A stretch of DNA of 64,000 nt from the human T2T-CHM13v2.0 reference genome, Homo sapiens: NCBI RefSeq assembly GCF_009914755.1, contig NC_060927.1; one strand, 5' to 3'. Each line of letters begins with the position of its first letter. The first letter of the stretch is position 1. Below are positions 1-36,620 of the stretch, piece after piece. Under the pieces are notes generated by a model, which saw only the letters and a list, made by a program, of their open reading frames with translations, searched no databases and was not told the DNA's origin. Both the position numbers and the translations under genes were made by a program.

Positions 1-11
1 CCAGTGTTTTC

Positions 12-1246
12 TCTTTTTTTTTTGAGACAGAGTCTTGCTCTGTCACCCAGGCTGGAGTGCAGGCAGTGGCGCAATCTCAGCTCACTGCAAGCTCCACCTC
101 CTGGGTTCATGCCATTCTTCTACCTCAGCCTCCCGAGTAGCTGGGACTACAGGCGCCTGCCACCACGCCCGGCTAATTTTTTGTATTTTTAGTAGAGATG
201 GGGTTTCACGTTGTTAGCCAGGATGGTCTGGATCTCCTGACCTTATGATCCACCTCAGCCTCCCAAAGTCCTGGGATTACAGGTGTGAGCCACCGTGCCG
301 GGCCTTTCTCTTTTTTTTTTTTTTTTTTTTTTTTTAAGAGACTAAGTCTTGCTCTGTCACCGAAGGTGGAGTGCGGTGACAGCATCATAGTTCATTGCAG
401 TCTCAAACACCCGGGTTCAAGCGATCCCCCCACCTCAGTCTTTGGAGTAGCTGGGACTACAGGCAAGCACCACCAGGCCTGGCTAATTCTGTTAGTTAGT
501 TAGTTAGTTATTTTGAGAGAGTTTCGCTCTTTTGCCTAGGCTATAGTGAAGTGCCACAATCTCGGTTCACTGCAACCTCTGGCCCCTGGGTTGAAGCAAA
601 TCTCCTGCCTCAGCCTCCCTAGTAGCTGGGATTATAGGTGCCTGCCACCATGCCTGGCTAATTTTTGTATTTTTAGCAGAGATGGGATTTCACCATATTG
701 GCCAGGCTAGTCTCAAACTCCTGACTCAGGTGATCCACCCACCTGCCTCAGCCTCCCAAAGTGCTAGGATTACAGGTGTGAGCCACCACGCCTGGCCAAT
801 TCTTTTATTTATTTATTTATTTATTTATTTTTTGAGACGGAGTCTCGCTGTCGCCCAGGCTGTAGTGCAGTGGCACGATCTCGGCTCACTGCAAGCTCCG
901 CCTCCCGGGTTCACGCCATTCTCCTGCCTCGGCCTCCTGAGTAGTTGGGACTATAGGCGCCCACCACCTCGCCTGGCTAATTTTTTGTATTTTTAGTAGA
1001 GACGGGGTTTCACCATGTTAGCCAGGATGGTCTCGATCTCCTGACCTCGTGATCTGCCCGCCTTGGCCTCCCAAAGTGCTGGGATTACAGGTGTGAGCCA
1101 CCGCGCCCGGCCATTCTTTTATTTTTTATAGAGATGAGGTCTTGCTGTGTTTCCCAGGCTGGTCTCAAATTTTTAGCTTCAAGTGATCCTCCTGCTTGGG
1201 CCTCCCAAAGTGCTGGGATTATAGGCATGAGCCACTGCACCCAGCC
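12..1246 (-). mobile_element. Cluster of nested antisense Alu elements (AluY-, AluS- and AluJ-like)
   Basis: Repeated Alu reverse-complement motifs (gagacagagtc...ctcccaaagtgctgggattacagg...cggcc). Representative of dozens of Alus across the window, which are not all listed. Confidence 0.95.
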
Positions 1247-1744
1247 CTCATATTTTTCTTTTTTAAACTTAGGTAAACAAGCTAATTGTGGAGAAAAATC
1301 CACAAGGAATCTACAGATGTAAAAAATACAGTTTTTCTCTGCTCTCTTTCCCATTCCTCAGGGGTAATCATCCTTCCAAATTTTTTCTCTTCATATACAA
1401 GCTGTAATTGTGTGCAAGTACAGGTATACTCTTATGCCTACACATATATATGTTTATATATTGTTTTTACAAAAGCAGAATCTTAACTATGATTATGGGT
1501 GGTGGTGGTGGTGTTTAAAGAGACAGGGTCTCACTCTGTCGCCAGGCTGGAGTGCAGTGGCACAATCGTAGCTCACTGTTGCCTCCACCTCCTGGGCTCA
1601 ATGATCCTCCCTCCTCAGCCTCCCAAAGCAGTGGGATTATAGGCATGAGCCTTCATGCCCAGCCTGATTATCCTTTTGCAGGCTGCTGTTTTTTCCACTT
1701 CATATCAGGAATGTCTTTCCTCTGTCAAAAAATAGAGTATGGCT

Positions 1745-2074
1745 CAGCAGTCCCTAACCTTTTTGGCACCAGGGACTGGTTTCATGGAAGACAGTTTTTC
1801 CACAGACCGTTTCGGGGCATGATTTCAGGATGAAACTGTTCAACTTTAGATCATCAGGCACTACTTAGATTCTCATAAGGAATGTGCAGCCTAGATCCTG
1901 CGCATGTGCAGTTCACAATGGGGTTTGCGCTCCCGTGAGAATCTAATGCAGCCGCTAATCTGACAGGAGGCGGATCTCAGTGGTAATGACCACTTGACCA
2001 CCCCTCACCTCCTGCTGTGCAGCTTGGTTCCTAGCAGACCACAGACTCCGTGATCCAGGAGTTGGGGACCCCTG
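1745..2074 (+). mobile_element. MER1B-like hAT-Charlie DNA transposon
   Basis: About 330 bp, begins cagcagtccctaacctttttggcaccagggactggtttcatggaagac and ends gttggggacccctg (imperfect terminal inverted repeats). Confidence 0.8.
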
Positions 2075-33745: not shown

Positions 33746-36038
33746 CTGCATCGAGACAACCAGATGGTTAGCACCCCTAAAGACTCTCTACTTACGCTTA
33801 TGATAGGCTTATGACTACTGCATTCCAGCCTATTAGTCACCGCAGTGTTAGATAGTGGCGATGATTGCACAACTTTGTGAATATACTAAAAAACCCTGAA
33901 TTGTAAACTTTTAGAGGAAGGAAACCATACCACAATTAAAAGGTAAATGTAACTTACATTATATTTTATTGGACAATATTTTTCTAGACTATGAACCCTG
34001 AAGCCAGGAGCCAAGAGGTACCCTGATAAAGTCTCTGGGTAGTGATTCCACAACAGAGGGCCTGGGCTCCAGTTCCACCTCATAGAGTCCAGCCCACTTG
34101 TTCTTTCCCTGGCAGCCAAGGAGCTATGAAGTGGGGCTTCCCAGACTGGCTCTGTGGCTCCATAGGGATGGCAGAAGCATCACTGACCTTATTCCCCAGC
34201 TTCAGCCTGGGCAACAGAGCAAGACAATGTTTCAAAAAAAAAAAAAAAAAATTTCTGACAGGTATTAAACCAAAGCTGAAAAATACATGAATAAAATATA
34301 TTAGACTAGGTTTGGGGATAGAATGTGTGTAAAAAATGGTTCTCGAACTTGAAGAATATACTACTGACTTTTTGGAAAGGAGAAGACATAGATTCTTAAG
34401 AATATGGAACTCTGGTTTGAGAGGTACCGAGTTTAAAGTTTTATTCTAAGACAATGTCATTTAGGCCTGGTACAGTGGCTCACACTTATAATCCCAGCAC
34501 TTTGGGAGGCTGAGATGGGAGGATCCCTTGAGCCCAGGAATTTGAGACCAACTGGGCAACATAGTGAGACCCTGTCTCTGCCAAAAATAAATAGATGTCT
34601 TTCAGTTACAAATTACAAAGCTTTATCTTTATAACAGTACAAGGACTTATTTTTAGATATTCACAAAAATAAAAATACAAAATTAAAAATTTCTTGCGGA
34701 ATTTGCAAACTTCAGATAACACAGATATTGAGTGTTTAGAAAATACAGGATAATTTAAGATTGCTTATTTAGGGTCTTAAAATACCTCAGGGTCATGATA
34801 TTCAACTCCATTTCTACAAAACTATTCAGCAGCGTAAATATAGGAGAGCTAGATGAATTTCTTTTGATTACACTGCCTGGAAAAGTCTTGAATTATCGTA
34901 GACTGAACAAGTGTTTTTTCGTTTGTTTTTCTGGAGACAGGGTCTTGCTTTGTCACCCAGGCTGGACCAAAAAGGTCGAGGCTGCAGTGATTGAGGCTGC
35001 AATCGCAGTGGTGCGATCATGGCTCACTTCAGCCTCGAACTCCCGGGCTCAAGTGATCCTCACACCTCAGCCTCCCGAGTAGCTGGGACTACAGGCACAC
35101 ACCACTGCACCTGGCTAAAGTTTAAATTTTTTTGTAGAGACAGTGGTCTCATTGTGTTGCCCAGGCTGGTCTTGAACTCCAGGGCTCAAGCGATCCTCCC
35201 ACCTCAGCCTCCCAAAGTATTGAGATTACAGGTGAGAGCCACCACGCCTGGCTGTGAACAAGTTTTTTGATGGCCTACCATGTGCCTTGCACTCTGCTGC
35301 ATGCTATGGGGTATAGAGTAAGGCAAGGTCATGACCCTGCGCTCAGAGTTTCTGTTCAAGTGATAAAATATGCAAACGGAAAAATAATAGATACTTAATC
35401 TAGTGCAACAAGAGCGAAACTCCGTCTCAAAAATTAAATTAAGTTAAATTAAATAAATAAATAAATACTGCAATGAAGTATGTGAGGAAGTTGCCTCCAC
35501 CCTAGGAAGGGAAATGATAATTACAATTCCTTACATGTCTAACAGCAGTGTTACAGATTGCAAAGCGCTTTGGTGCTTAGCATCTCAGCTAACCATTGGA
35601 ACAGTAATTTGGTAGAATGCAGATTATCACACTCACTTGACTGGATGTTACAAATACTAAAAGCTATAAAGCACCAGGCACTCTTCCCAACGAAAGGGTG
35701 GGATGGGATAGTTCATAGGTAAACCCACCGAGGGTTGGCGACTAACCTAAAGGATTAACAGCACCGTTTTTGTTTTTTGTTTTTAACACTCAATACGTCC
35801 TAGATCCTGTGCTAAGGGATTTACAGACATCATCTAATTTGATTCCCACCTGTCTATGAGGGAGGTACTGTTATTATCCCCATTTCACAGAGGACAAAAG
35901 TGAAACACAGAGGTAACGGGTAAGGTCACCTTGCCAGTGGGGGCGAGACGTGAACCTAGGCAAACTGACACAACGCCTGCACTTTCTTGTCCAAGGTCAC
36001 GGCGGTGTGAGGTAGGCTGGGGAAGGGAGGGCGCTGAC

Positions 36039-36188
36039 CTGTCAGATACTTGTTCCTGGGTGAGCTTCTTGTCGCTCTCCAGCAGGATGGACACGTAGTG
36101 GCGGATCATGTCTACGAAGAGTGATAACGATGGGTAGGACCACCCAGAGGCAGATGTTGGAGTCAAGCAACAGTTCTGGCCCTGCCAT
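36039..36188 (-). pseudogene. Frameshifted copy of the EMC3 (TMEM111) exon 1 coding region
   Basis: [23 protein letters not shown], then a frameshift, then [26 protein letters not shown]. Matches the recalled EMC3 N-terminus [51 protein letters not shown]. Donor AG|gtcagc intact. Confidence 0.92.
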
Positions 36189-36189
36189 C

Positions 36190-36620
36190 TTCACTGAAAG
36201 CTGGCTCCCAGCCGGTGATGGGCGAGCTTCTCTTCACCGGGGCGCAGTTGCTTCTCTCTGACGTCGCCTCTGGGCCTTCTCTCGCCCCTATGCCCGGCTA
36301 GCACAGAACTCTGCTGCAGCGGTGAGCCCAGCTTATTGCCTTCAGCTGGGCTGCCCGGCCTTCCACTTCCGGCGCGGAAGTTGGCGTCACGTCATGGCGC
36401 GCCTCGGTGGCGTCAGAGCGGCGTCGGGCCTGGCGGGAAAGTCGAAAACTACGGGCGGCGACGGCTTCTCGGTGAGTAAGTGGAGCAATGGTCGTAGTCT
36501 CTCGAGGCCCCGCTCCCCTGCGGCCTAATCTCTAAGTCCGGGCCGCGGTCGGCGTTCTCCTCTGGGGCTCCGCGCCCCGAACCTTGGCTTCCTCATCTGC
36601 CCTGAGATGGGATAATCCCC
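36190..36620. promoter_or_regulatory. Bidirectional CpG-island promoter of FANCD2 and the EMC3-derived transcript
   Basis: CpG-rich. Inverted ETS/GABP pair ACTTCCG-gcg-CGGAAGT (36365-36381), CRE-like TCACGTCA, YY1-like CATGGCG, E2F site TGGCGGGAAA (36431-36440). Confidence 0.85.
36430..36471 (+). other. FANCD2: FANCD2 non-coding exon 1 (start approximate)
   Basis: ...GACGGCTTCTCG|gtgagt donor, joining exon 2 GAAGTAATTT as in the recalled FANCD2 5' UTR. Confidence 0.85.

What the first reader, a model, noticed from the sequence alone, without database searches (positions are those of the whole stretch)
1..36471. Duplicated EMC3/FANCD2 bidirectional promoter with apparent reciprocal partner loss
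Seen: about 240 bp upstream of FANCD2 exon 1, on the opposite strand, lies a frameshifted EMC3 exon 1 with no further EMC3 exons. At the left end of the window lies a dead FANCD2 copy in the same orientation as FANCD2. Established (recalled): mouse Emc3 and Fancd2 are a head-to-head pair, and functional human EMC3 lies just left of this region. Inference: the ancestral EMC3<-promoter->FANCD2 unit was tandemly duplicated and each promoter copy kept one working gene. That would uncouple an ER-insertase housekeeping gene from an E2F/S-phase DNA-repair gene, while each promoter drives a pseudogene RNA in the other direction.
Basis: partly seen in the sequence, partly recalled or inferred. Interest (0 to 1): 0.8.

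Follow-up and report, generated by a model that had tools for sequence, protein, structure and literature searches.

The report
Duplicated EMC3–FANCD2 two-way promoter
An old primate duplication copied the shared on-switch of the EMC3 and FANCD2 genes, so each gene now has its own copy and each copy also drives a leftover non-coding RNA; this is a tidy but ordinary product of segmental duplication.

Summary
A frameshifted EMC3 exon-1 copy (36039-36188, minus strand) lies 246 bp from FANCD2 exon 1. A paralogous promoter lies 39.5 kb to the left, just outside the window at -4144..-2426. It has an intact EMC3 exon 1 head-to-head with a FANCD2 exon-1 copy that is split by an Alu. Both copies are still CpG islands and both keep the E2F/CDE motif. 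The left copy drives EMC3 and EMC3-AS1. The right copy drives FANCD2 and CIDECP1, whose first exon is the EMC3 exon-1 copy spliced to CIDEC-derived exons.

The interpretation needs correcting on three points.
- **Not a simple tandem duplication.** It is a mosaic of FANCD2 pieces, chr3 duplicon modules shared with the FANCD2P2 locus, the 3' end of CIDEC and an inverted piece of EMC3 intron 1. The junctions show microhomology.
- **No sign of reciprocal loss.** There is no trace that the inner copies were ever complete, so they were probably truncated from the start.
- **Regulatory uncoupling is not shown.** EMC3 still sits next to the E2F element. Mouse Emc3, which shares the promoter with Fancd2, is absent from one paper's S/G2-M lists that include Fancd2.

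The case is ordinary in kind. Its useful by-product is that EMC3-AS1 appears to be the FANCD2P1 transcript, run by a copy of the FANCD2 promoter.

The parts
1..299 (+). In-window tail of the left copy (L). Most of L lies just outside the window, at these window places:
- -4144..-3509: the part of the real EMC3 intron 1 next to exon 1
- -3508..-3354 (minus strand): intact EMC3 exon 1, coding part
- -3353..-3123: L promoter core
- -3110..-3095: E2F/CDE-CHR-like element (GGCGGG AAAG TGGAAA); the EMC3-AS1 start at -3122 is 12 bp upstream
- -3135..-2721: FANCD2 exon-1 copy split by an Alu (about -3083..-2779) with a target-site duplication of about 15 bp; donor motif kept at -2759
- -2431..299: FANCD2P1 block with copies of exons 12-14; the exon-14 copy (about -1303..-1268) is probably EMC3-AS1 exon 2
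   Evidence: chr3:9978353-9978916 at 90% (E = 4e-220) and 9979222-9979479 at 94%.: -4144..-3084 with 35405..36458 (88.0%), -2778..-2426 with 36444..36795 (93.2%), -2431..299 with 52729..55462 (91.8%); alignment; exon-1 translation. PF01956 match at chr3:9978491-9978634. L core 758 bp, 54 CpG, o/e 0.83; motif positions; exon copies at 93.8-97.9% and an exact primer match at -1289.
2645..5571 (+). FANCD2P1 block with copies of exons 15 and 16 (annotated FANCD2P1 exons 2857-2996 and 4173-4311)
   Evidence: 91.0% to 56358-59332; exon-15 copy 99.4%, exon-16 copy 94.9%.
5575..12603 (+). Distal FANCD2P1 blocks: the tail of exon 18, intronic sequence and CYCSP10, the paralogue of CYCSP11. Exon 17 and most of exon 18 are missing
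   Evidence: chain running to 12017-12603 with 68764-69336 (86-93%); exon 17 gives no hit.
12604..24771 (.). Filler made of chr3 duplicon modules. It holds the EMC3-AS1 terminal exon (12717-17004), an 87-bp tandem repeat (12759-13204), MARK2P2 and an alternative EMC3 start at 21118. It is collinear with the flanks of the FANCD2P2 locus
   Evidence: 84-92% to chr3:11902834-11911297, and 24166-24771 at 91% to chr3:11854814-11855434.
24829..33788 (-). Copy of the 3' part of the CIDEC locus, carrying CIDECP1 exon 3 (27553-28071) and exon 2 (33558-33745). It stops 65 bp short of the CIDE-N exon
   Evidence: 89-95% to chr3:9855861-9862122. CIDE-N exon at chr3:9862187-9862357 (minus strand); exon 2 at 95.2%, exon 3 at 93.1%, with canonical splice sites.
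34200..35406 (+). Inverted copy of a deeper piece of EMC3 intron 1 (-9259..-8013)
   Evidence: 87.2% over 1259 bp, inverted; junction J1 at about 35408 with 2-3 bp of microhomology.
35405..36038 (-). Right copy (R): copy of the part of EMC3 intron 1 next to exon 1
36039..36188 (-). EMC3 exon-1 copy, frameshifted by a 5-bp deletion at 36120/36121. Its donor context is identical to that of the real exon. It serves as CIDECP1 exon 1 (36039-36134)
36189..36434 (.). R core of the bidirectional CpG-island promoter
   Evidence: R core is 752 bp, GC 0.60, 57 CpG, o/e 0.84. Palindromic ETS pair at 36365-36381; 40 CpGs shared, 14 only in L, 16 only in R.
36432..36447 (+). E2F/CDE-CHR-like element (GGCGGG AAAG TCGAAA) at the FANCD2 start site
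   Evidence: The layout fits the CDE/CHR described in PMC4821997; that it is the published element is my inference.
36435..36471 (+). FANCD2 exon 1. Positions 36444-36458 correspond to the Alu target-site duplication in L
   Evidence: Annotation.
36472..36795 (+). First 0.3 kb of FANCD2 intron 1, the last part of the promoter module that is copied in L (-2750..-2426). The L paralogy then jumps to 52729 (junction J2)
   Evidence: 93.2%. J2 with 3-bp microhomology.
52729..64000 (+). FANCD2 intron 11 to intron 18, the source region of the FANCD2P1 blocks. The paralogy continues outside the window to about 69336

Best explanation
In an anthropoid ancestor, a complex mosaic segmental duplication inserted about 39.5 kb between EMC3 and FANCD2. 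In mouse these two genes share one head-to-head CpG-island promoter.

The event copied the whole promoter module: EMC3 exon 1, about 0.6 kb of intron 1, the intergenic core, and FANCD2 exon 1 with about 0.35 kb of intron 1. The breakpoints lay inside both genes. The outer genes therefore stayed whole, and the inner copies were fragments from the start.

Both promoter copies remain unmethylated-type CpG islands and fire in both directions.
- The left copy drives EMC3 and EMC3-AS1. EMC3-AS1 begins at the FANCD2 start-site copy and probably splices through the FANCD2P1 exon-14 copy into a new terminal exon.
- The right copy drives FANCD2 and CIDECP1, in which the EMC3 exon-1 copy and its donor are spliced to CIDEC-derived exons.

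Shown here: the anatomy, the paralogy, the conserved motifs and the CpG retention. Inferred: the date, that the inner copies were truncated from the start, the middle exon of EMC3-AS1, and that the inherited E2F/CDE element causes EMC3-AS1's cell-cycle pattern.
For: - Whole-genome search: the promoter query hits chr3:9978353-9978916 (90%, E = 4e-220) and 9979222-9979479 (94%).
- Collinear L/R chain from -4144..12603 to 35405..69336.
- Base-level alignment: intact EMC3 exon 1 in L, a 5-bp deletion in R, and an Alu with a target-site duplication inside the L FANCD2 exon-1 copy.
- CpG-island character is kept in both cores: 54 vs 57 CpG, o/e 0.83 vs 0.84, 40 CpGs shared.
- The E2F/CDE motif and one ETS site are conserved in both copies.
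- No other EMC3 exon copy was found in 12-36.3 kb.
- CIDECP1 exons 2 and 3 are 95% and 93% copies of CIDEC exons with canonical splice sites, and the EMC3 donor is identical in both copies.
- Similar age: CpG-free K2P is 0.064 for L/R (10212 sites) and 0.066 for CIDEC/CIDECP1 (5483 sites).
- Junctions J1 and J2 have 2-3 bp of microhomology.
- Mouse Fancd2 is paired with Tmem111 at 47 bp, while human FANCD2 is paired with mRNA BC043599 at 64 bp (PMC2386062, Table 1 passage).
- EMC3-AS1 is in the same synchronised-fibroblast cluster as FANCD2 (PMC6788831, main text and supplement file 2) and is associated with 'E2F targets' and 'G2M checkpoint' (PMC11234810, passages).
- The published EMC3-AS1 forward primer matches the FANCD2P1 exon-14 copy exactly, and the reverse primer lies in the terminal exon.
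Against: - No non-human genome could be examined. The ancestral state rests on one published mouse table entry, and the date rests on recalled substitution rates.
- L/R divergence is uneven between blocks (K2P 0.040 to 0.105), so gene conversion or more than one event is likely.
- The FANCD2P2 locus shares the filler in permuted order. The exon-12+ part of FANCD2P1 may therefore have a separate origin from the promoter module, and junction J2 may be a composite joint rather than a later deletion.
- FANCD2P1 has clearly lost sequence (exon 17 and most of exon 18; exons 2-11 either by deletion or because they were never there), so larger early copies cannot be excluded.
- The Pfam EMC3 model did not report the R exon copy, presumably because of the frameshift.
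- The cell-cycle evidence for EMC3-AS1 is weak. It scores 1 in the column where FANCD2 scores 8, and array probes or reads could cross-map to FANCD2 through the shared exons.
- I could not see the RefSeq exons of EMC3-AS1 that lie outside the window.
Confidence: 0.75

Rival explanations
1. The complete EMC3<-promoter->FANCD2 unit was duplicated in tandem, both genes were redundant for a time, and each promoter copy then lost a different partner by decay. This freed EMC3 from an S-phase promoter.
For: Both promoter copies exist in the predicted arrangement. FANCD2P1 did suffer later losses: exon 17 and most of exon 18 are missing and an Alu sits in the exon-1 copy. That shows decay after duplication does occur here.
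Against: - No copy of EMC3 exons 2-5 turned up between the promoters. The scan of the whole gene body gave only exon 1 with its flanking intron, the inverted intron piece and three short unclassified hits.
- FANCD2P1 paralogy stops at the equivalent of 69336 with a non-homologous junction.
- The space between the copies is filled with unrelated duplicons of the same age.
- The E2F/CDE motif is still beside EMC3.
- Mouse Emc3/Tmem111 is not in the S/G2-M lists that contain Fancd2.
Confidence: 0.08
2. Two-step composite origin. The promoter/exon-1 module was duplicated locally. Separately, the FANCD2 exon-12+ segment arrived together with the filler modules from the FANCD2P2 locus or from a shared tandem or circular intermediate. 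On this view, junction J2 in FANCD2P1 is an assembly joint and not a deletion of exons 2-11.
For: - The P2 locus carries the same filler blocks in circularly permuted order: F2-P2-F1 there, P1-F1-F2 here, at 84-92%.
- Both pseudogenes begin within 328 bp of each other just before exon 12: L at the equivalent of 52729, P2 at 53057.
- P2 matches L contiguously over 709-5571, whereas R matches only from 2645.
- J2 has only 3 bp of microhomology.
Against: - Three-way distances do not group L with P2. In the distal blocks R-P2 (0.060-0.071) is smaller than L-P2 (0.089-0.092).
- P2 extends to exon 28 and contains 59332-62464, both of which L lacks.
- A single template-switching event could produce the same mosaic.
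Confidence: 0.3
3. The duplication was kept because it rewired regulation. The substitutions that differ between the copies (second ETS site only in R, full CRE only in L, CHR-like hexamer changed in L) specialise L for constitutive EMC3 expression and R for cell-cycle FANCD2 expression.
For: The motif differences are real. Both copies have stayed CpG islands over a CpG-free divergence of about 6%.
Against: - The direction of each change is unknown without an outgroup.
- 14 vs 16 copy-specific CpGs and 90.8% identity look like symmetric neutral drift.
- The L side still produces an RNA with an S/G2-M pattern.
- No expression comparison between human and mouse EMC3 was available.
Confidence: 0.1

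Closest known systems
FANCD2 pseudogene regions FANCD2-P1 and FANCD2-P2. I recall these from Kalb et al. 2007, Am J Hum Genet, but could not read that paper. They are cited in PMC3527584 and listed in PMC4657327 (passages read).
   Same: Same sequence. FANCD2P1 is an unprocessed, intron-containing partial copy upstream of FANCD2. From recall it was reported to hold exon 1 and exons 12-16, which matches.
   Different: The passages I read treat it only as a nuisance for diagnostics and read mapping. None mentions that EMC3 exon 1 and the whole bidirectional promoter were copied too, that EMC3-AS1 starts at the exon-1 copy, or that the P1 and P2 loci share flanking duplicons.
Mouse Tmem111(Emc3)-Fancd2 bidirectional promoter (Yang and Elnitski 2008, PMC2386062, Table 1 passage)
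   Same: Head-to-head pair with a CpG island across both first exons: 47 bp apart in mouse, and 64 bp for human FANCD2 with its partner.
   Different: In human the listed partner is an mRNA (BC043599), not TMEM111. The passage I read gives no explanation. The partner exon is a pseudo-copy of EMC3 exon 1.
Mosaic primate segmental duplications that create fusion or chimeric transcripts from juxtaposed gene fragments (general knowledge)
   Same: Blocks of 86-95% identity, several source loci (FANCD2, CIDEC, EMC3 intron, chr3 duplicon modules), Alus near the edges, microhomology joints, and chimeric spliced RNAs (EMC3 copy + CIDEC copy; FANCD2 copies + new exon).
   Different: The duplicated piece includes a complete bidirectional promoter whose two original genes both survive, one per copy. 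The result is two matched gene + by-product pairs.
CDE/CHR (DREAM/E2F4) control of Fancd2/FANCD2 (Jaber et al. 2016, PMC4821997, passages and figure legends read)
   Same: R carries a 6+4+6 element at the FANCD2 start that fits the published layout. L carries the same CDE.
   Different: The human element's sequence is in that paper's supplement, which I did not open, so equating it with 36432-36447 is my inference. The L copy has one change in the CHR-like hexamer and an Alu about 14 bp downstream. Its function has not been tested.
Duplication-degeneration-complementation / reciprocal gene loss after duplication (general knowledge)
   Same: Two copies of a unit, each with a different surviving function.
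   Different: The complementary pattern here is most simply explained by breakpoints inside the genes, not by differential decay of complete duplicates.

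Membership tests
Bidirectional (head-to-head) CpG-island promoter | Two divergent transcription units with start sites less than 1 kb apart | tested here: met
   R: CIDECP1 exon 1 begins at 36134 (minus strand) and FANCD2 at 36435 (plus strand), 300 bp apart by RefSeq. L: the EMC3 ATG is at -3354 and EMC3-AS1 starts at -3122 (annotation).
Bidirectional (head-to-head) CpG-island promoter | A CpG island spanning both first exons | tested here: met
   L core GC 0.587, o/e 0.83; R core GC 0.60, o/e 0.84. 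The flanks drop to o/e 0.1-0.4.
Bidirectional (head-to-head) CpG-island promoter | Both directions are transcriptionally active | not testable with these tools
   Rests on RefSeq transcripts (NR_103821, NR_002786) and on expression papers. No paralogue-specific start-site data were examined.
Segmental duplication (conventional definition recalled: at least 1 kb and at least 90% identity) | Non-repeat paralogous blocks of at least 1 kb at 90% identity or more | tested here: met
   2986 bp at 91.0% and 2783 bp at 91.8%. Other blocks are 86-93%, some below the conventional cut-off. The promoter block itself is 88.0% over 1077 bp.
Simple tandem duplication | The two copies abut directly, end of copy 1 joined to start of copy 2 | tested here: not met
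   About 21.6 kb of filler from other loci, plus an inverted intron fragment, separates 12603 from 35405.
Reciprocal loss after whole-unit duplication (DDC-like) | Both duplicates were initially complete genes | tested here: inconclusive
   No remnants of EMC3 exons 2-5. No non-Alu match of at least 86% identity and 150 bp between FANCD2 sequence 69336-94000 and 12603-35405. FANCD2 beyond 94000 was not examined, and early deletions cannot be excluded.
Unprocessed (duplicated) pseudogene | Intron sequence is retained alongside the exon copies | tested here: met
   FANCD2P1 and the EMC3 exon-1 copy align through their flanking introns. By contrast, the chr16 EMC3 copy has contiguous exons and is processed.
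EMC3/TMCO1 family (Pfam PF01956) coding exon | Match to the family model over the curated cut-off | tested here: not met
   the L exon 1 scores 40.2 bits, over the cut-off. The R copy is not reported at E <= 0.001 (frameshifted). R is a pseudo-exon identified at the DNA level only.
CDE/CHR cell-cycle element | A 6-bp GC-rich CDE, a 4-bp spacer and a 6-bp AT-rich CHR near the start site (as stated in PMC4821997) | tested here: inconclusive
   Layout met in R (GGCGGG AAAG TCGAAA, 36432-36447). L has the same CDE but TGGAAA. My scan for the recalled consensus TTYGAA found no match in either copy. Function was not tested here.

The most novel reading that the evidence does not exclude
EMC3-AS1, now studied as a free-standing proliferation-linked lncRNA and cancer biomarker, is the spliced transcript of FANCD2P1. 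It is driven by a preserved paralogue of the FANCD2 E2F/CDE promoter half. Its 'E2F targets/G2M' signature would then be inherited promoter logic, making it a natural internal reporter of FANCD2-promoter activity. More broadly, the locus would be a natural experiment: a direction-specific cell-cycle module kept its behaviour for some 30 million years after being separated from its gene, while the housekeeping direction of the same promoter was unaffected.
Probability: 0.5. Interest if true: 0.45.

Novelty: new member of a known kind. Interest (0 to 1): 0.35.

Why it matters
- **Published anomaly.** It explains why human FANCD2's divergent partner differs from the mouse one (PMC2386062).
- **Annotation.** It gives a structural origin for two annotated RNAs. 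CIDECP1 is an EMC3-copy/CIDEC-copy chimera. EMC3-AS1 is probably the FANCD2P1 transcript.
- **Practical caution.** EMC3-AS1 shares exon copies that are 93-99% identical to FANCD2 and shares FANCD2's promoter logic. Its correlation with proliferation in expression studies may therefore carry no information independent of FANCD2, and primers or probes can cross-react. One published forward primer matches FANCD2 exon 14 exactly.
- **FANCD2 promoter studies.** Part of the region assayed as 'FANCD2 promoter' has an 88% paralogue 39.5 kb away. At least one published ChIP primer lies inside the duplicated block (compared by eye with the sequence).
- **Evolution.** It is a clear case of a whole bidirectional promoter being duplicated with both directions surviving in both copies. 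It does not by itself show adaptive uncoupling.

Tried and rejected
- Kalb et al. 2007 is not held under the PMC id I recalled. What I say about it is recall plus citing passages.
- The Pfam EMC3 model did not pick up the frameshifted R exon, so the copy rests on DNA alignment and the two-frame translation.
- Three-way distances among L, R and FANCD2P2 were meant to order the events. They are star-like and differ between blocks, so they gave no order.
- I considered Alu-Alu recombination as the mechanism. J1 and J4 fall inside the 3' end of a single Alu, J3 lies about 20 bp past an Alu, and J2 and J5 lie in unique sequence. None is an Alu-Alu crossover, so I rejected simple NAHR.
- I considered an assembly artefact. 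FixItFelix flags this region as collapsed in GRCh38. But the copies differ by 7-12% and a search with 56400-59300 found exactly three copies in this assembly, so I rejected it.
- I did not date the event by Alu subfamily, because no consensus library is available and I may not type one from memory.
- Literature searches: 'FANCD2P1' (3 papers), 'FANCD2-P1/-P2/pseudogene' (1), 'CIDECP' (19), 'FANCD2+TMEM111+bidirectional' (1), 'EMC3-AS1' (16), 'FANCD2+EMC3+segmental duplication' (2), 'FANCD2 promoter+E2F' (7). In the listings, abstracts and passages I read, none links the promoter duplication to EMC3-AS1 or CIDECP1. Most of those papers were seen only as listings.
The left-copy features are now described in the text of the first part.

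Full report
**What is at the coordinates.** On the minus strand of 36039-36188 there is an EMC3 exon-1 copy. Frame 0 reads [24 protein letters not shown] and frame 1 continues [26 protein letters not shown], ending at a GT donor. Its ATG is 246 bp from FANCD2 exon 1 (36435-36471). RefSeq labels this piece exon 1 of the transcribed pseudogene CIDECP1 (36039-36134). At the left end of the window, 2645-5571 is 91.0% identical to 56358-59332 (FANCD2 exons 15-16) in the same orientation. Both parts of the observation are therefore correct.

The assembly is held, so I searched it with 35900-36700. Apart from the query itself there are two adjacent hits just left of the window, chr3:9978353-9978916 (90%, E = 4e-220) and 9979222-9979479 (94%), plus one chr16 hit. 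After fetching 40 kb to the left and 30 kb to the right, a self-comparison gave this collinear chain, in window coordinates:
- -4144..-3084 with 35405..36458 (88.0%)
- -2778..-2426 with 36444..36795 (93.2%)
- -2431..299 with 52729..55462 (91.8%)
- 2645..5571 with 56358..59332 (91.0%)
- five further blocks, ending at 12017..12603 with 68764..69336 (87.6%)

The base-level alignment shows the following.
- The left copy (L) has an intact EMC3 exon 1 ([51 protein letters not shown] followed by GT). It is confirmed as EMC3 by a Pfam PF01956 match at chr3:9978491-9978634.
- The right copy (R) differs by a 5-bp deletion at 36120/36121.
- The L copy of FANCD2 exon 1 is split by an Alu flanked by a target-site duplication of about 15 bp, corresponding to R 36444-36458.

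The prediction 'intact EMC3 exon 1 head-to-head with a FANCD2 exon-1 copy' is met. The two promoter copies are 39,542 bp apart, measured between the motif copies.

**No other EMC3 exons in between.** The chr16 hit is a processed EMC3 pseudogene with contiguous exons. It located the real exons 1-5, and only exon 1 also matches the window. A low-copy scan of the whole EMC3 gene body against 12000-36300 returned 5 hits. Two are the exon-1/intron block and an inverted 1.26-kb piece of intron 1 (-9259..-8013 with 35406..34200, 87.2%). The other three are short (44, 64 and 95 bp, 74-89% identity) and I did not check them against exon positions.

**What lies between the copies.** It is not empty, so this is not a simple tandem repeat.
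- Window 24829-33788 is a copy, in five blocks of 89-95% identity, of chr3:9855861-9862122. That source is CIDEC: its CIDE-N exon is at chr3:9862187-9862357 on the minus strand, 65 bp beyond the end of the paralogy.
- Both downstream CIDECP1 exons lie in this copy. Exon 2 is a 95.2% copy of a CIDEC coding exon that is still open, and exon 3 is a 93.1% copy. Both have canonical splice sites.
- CIDECP1 is therefore a chimera. The EMC3 exon-1 copy, whose donor context is identical to the real one, is spliced to CIDEC-derived exons.
- Window 12.9-23.2 kb consists of chr3 duplicon modules, including MARK2P2 and an 87-bp tandem repeat. Their closest relatives are at chr3:11902834-11911297 (84-92%), to the right of FANCD2P2. 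Window 24166-24771 matches the left flank of FANCD2P2 at 91%.

**Junctions.**
- J1, where the inverted intron piece meets the direct copy at about 35408: 2-3 bp of microhomology, inside the 3' end of one Alu.
- J2, the L internal joint (R 36795 | R 52729): 3 bp of microhomology (GAC).
- J3, the distal end (L about 12606 / R about 69339): about 20 bp past an Alu.

None is an Alu-Alu crossover. This points to end-joining or template switching (my inference).

**Age.** CpG-free K2P distances are 0.064 for the L/R blocks (10212 sites, range 0.040-0.105), 0.066 for CIDEC/CIDECP1 (5483 sites) and 0.089 for the inverted intron piece (1157 sites). The CIDEC insertion and the L/R split therefore look about the same age. 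With recalled primate substitution rates this is very roughly 25-45 million years, in an anthropoid or catarrhine ancestor. That figure is an inference and was not tested. The uneven block values and a 99.4% identical exon-15 copy suggest gene conversion or more than one event.

**State of the two promoters.**
- Both cores keep CpG-island character. L has 758 bp, 54 CpG, o/e 0.83. R has 752 bp, 57 CpG, o/e 0.84. There are 40 shared CpGs, 14 only in L and 16 only in R, at 90.8% identity.
- Conserved in both: one ETS site (CCGGAAGT), a YY1-like site at the EMC3 ATG, and the E2F-type TTTCCCGCC at the FANCD2-side start.
- Different: a second, inverted ETS site only in R; a full CRE only in L; an SP1-type GGGCGG only in R; and the hexamer after the E2F/CDE site (TCGAAA in R, TGGAAA in L). 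Without an outgroup I cannot tell which state is derived.
- Jaber et al. describe a functional CDE/CHR 23-38 bp downstream of the mouse Fancd2 start and report that it is conserved and functional in human (PMC4821997, passages and legends). R 36432-36447 fits the stated 6+4+6 layout. That it is the published element is my inference.

**The by-product RNAs.** EMC3-AS1 is annotated to start at -3122, 12 bp upstream of the L motif copy. FANCD2 starts 3 bp into the R motif. The FANCD2 exon-1 donor motif is kept in L at -2759. The published EMC3-AS1 forward qPCR primer matches the FANCD2P1 exon-14 copy exactly at -1289 and also matches FANCD2 exon 14 at 53843. The reverse primer lies in the terminal exon, at 12762 and 12936. 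I infer that EMC3-AS1 is the spliced transcript of FANCD2P1: exon-1 copy, exon-14 copy, then a new terminal exon just beyond the end of the paralogy. I could not see the RefSeq exons that lie outside the window.

**Expression evidence from print.**
- EMC3-AS1 is in the S/G2-M gene list of Giotti et al., in the same human fibroblast cluster ('high at 18-22 h') as FANCD2. Mouse Fancd2 is in the matching mouse cluster.
- Searching the four supplement files held as text for EMC3, Emc3 and Tmem111 returned only EMC3-AS1 (PMC6788831).
- In liver cancer, high EMC3-AS1 goes with 'E2F targets' and 'G2M checkpoint'. That paper never mentions FANCD2 (PMC11234810, passages).
- Caveats: EMC3-AS1 scores 1 in the column where FANCD2 scores 8; cross-hybridisation with FANCD2 is possible; and absence from a list is weak evidence.

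**Reading.** The promoter duplication is real, and both copies work in both directions. With breakpoints inside both genes, 'one working gene per copy' follows from the geometry and does not require reciprocal decay. Physical uncoupling of EMC3 from FANCD2 is real, but regulatory uncoupling is not shown. EMC3 still sits beside the E2F/CDE element, the FANCD2-side direction of L still behaves like a cell-cycle promoter, and the limited mouse data give no sign that Emc3 was ever coupled to Fancd2's periodicity.

**Unresolved.** FANCD2P1 plus its filler and the FANCD2P2 locus carry the same blocks in circularly permuted order: P1-F1-F2 here, F2-P2-F1 there. Both pseudogenes begin within 328 bp of each other just before exon 12. 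Three-way distances are star-like with a long L branch distally. The exon-12+ part of P1 may therefore have arrived separately from the promoter module. I put this at about 0.3. It would not change the promoter conclusion.

**Prior knowledge.** FANCD2P1, CIDECP1 and EMC3-AS1 are all annotated. FANCD2-P1 was described in 2007 (recalled, not read). The human/mouse difference in FANCD2's divergent partner is tabulated in PMC2386062. CIDECP and FANCD2 both appear in a list of promoters with duplicated GGAA motifs (PMC3101357). In my seven searches and the passages I read, nothing links these facts to a duplicated bidirectional promoter. This is a new, well-resolved example of a known kind of event, of moderate-to-low interest. 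Its practical consequence is for how EMC3-AS1 and 'FANCD2 promoter' assays are interpreted.

Noticed in passing
L004 = chr16:75244835-75248004 (match at chr16:75246133-75246504): A processed EMC3 pseudogene with contiguous exons 1-5 and stop codons (2 TGA, 1 TAA in the Pfam match). It is 79.7% identical to the real exon 1 and 77.2% to the window's exon-1 copy.
   Followed up: partly
window 2857-3026 vs 56584-56753: The FANCD2P1 exon-15 copy is 99.4% identical to FANCD2 over 170 bp, inside a block that averages 91%. This looks like a local gene-conversion patch and matters for variant calling in FANCD2 exon 15.
   Followed up: no
window 53843-53864 and chr3:9980711-9980732 (window -1289..-1268): The published EMC3-AS1 forward qPCR primer (PMC11234810) matches FANCD2 exon 14 exactly, as well as the FANCD2P1 exon-14 copy. 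The specificity of that assay rests on the reverse primer alone, and that primer has two exact sites (12762, 12936) in an 87-bp tandem repeat.
   Followed up: yes
window 12759-13204: An 87-bp tandem repeat (5.2 copies, 79% matches) at the start of the EMC3-AS1 terminal exon. Related repeats lie at chr3:11903.5-11906.3 kb beside FANCD2P2.
   Followed up: partly
window 12604-24771 and chr3:11854814-11911297: The filler that follows FANCD2P1 and the flanks of FANCD2P2 are the same duplicon blocks in circularly permuted order. This hints at a tandem or circular intermediate in the origin of the two pseudogene loci. Older copies of the modules (about 70-85% identity) lie at chr3:12.86-12.88, 131.59, 132.08-132.09 and 132.66 Mb, and beside CIDEC.
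   Followed up: partly
window 21023-21118 (minus strand), with RefSeq silencer/enhancer marks at 21119-21672: Some RefSeq EMC3 transcripts start at 21118, inside the duplicon filler, and run across FANCD2P1 into EMC3. This is a third promoter, unrelated to the duplicated one, feeding the gene. EMC3-AS1's terminal exon overlaps their exon 16417-17623, hence the name 'antisense'.
   Followed up: no
window 10345-11013 and 67667-68360: CYCSP10 and CYCSP11 sit at equivalent places in the L and R copies. The cytochrome-c processed pseudogene was therefore already in the FANCD2 intron before the duplication and was copied along with it.
   Followed up: partly
window 35499-35520: A published 'FANCD2 promoter' E2F-1 ChIP primer (PMC3898318) lies in the copied EMC3 intron-1 sequence. 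The studied CpGs at -698/-688 are therefore inside the duplicated block, which has an 88% paralogue beside EMC3.
   Followed up: no
window 62696-63541: This repeat-masked stretch has two inverted copies at about 90-91% identity in the FANCD2P2 locus (chr3:11857738-11858581 and 11889905-11890744), bracketing most of that pseudogene.
   Followed up: no
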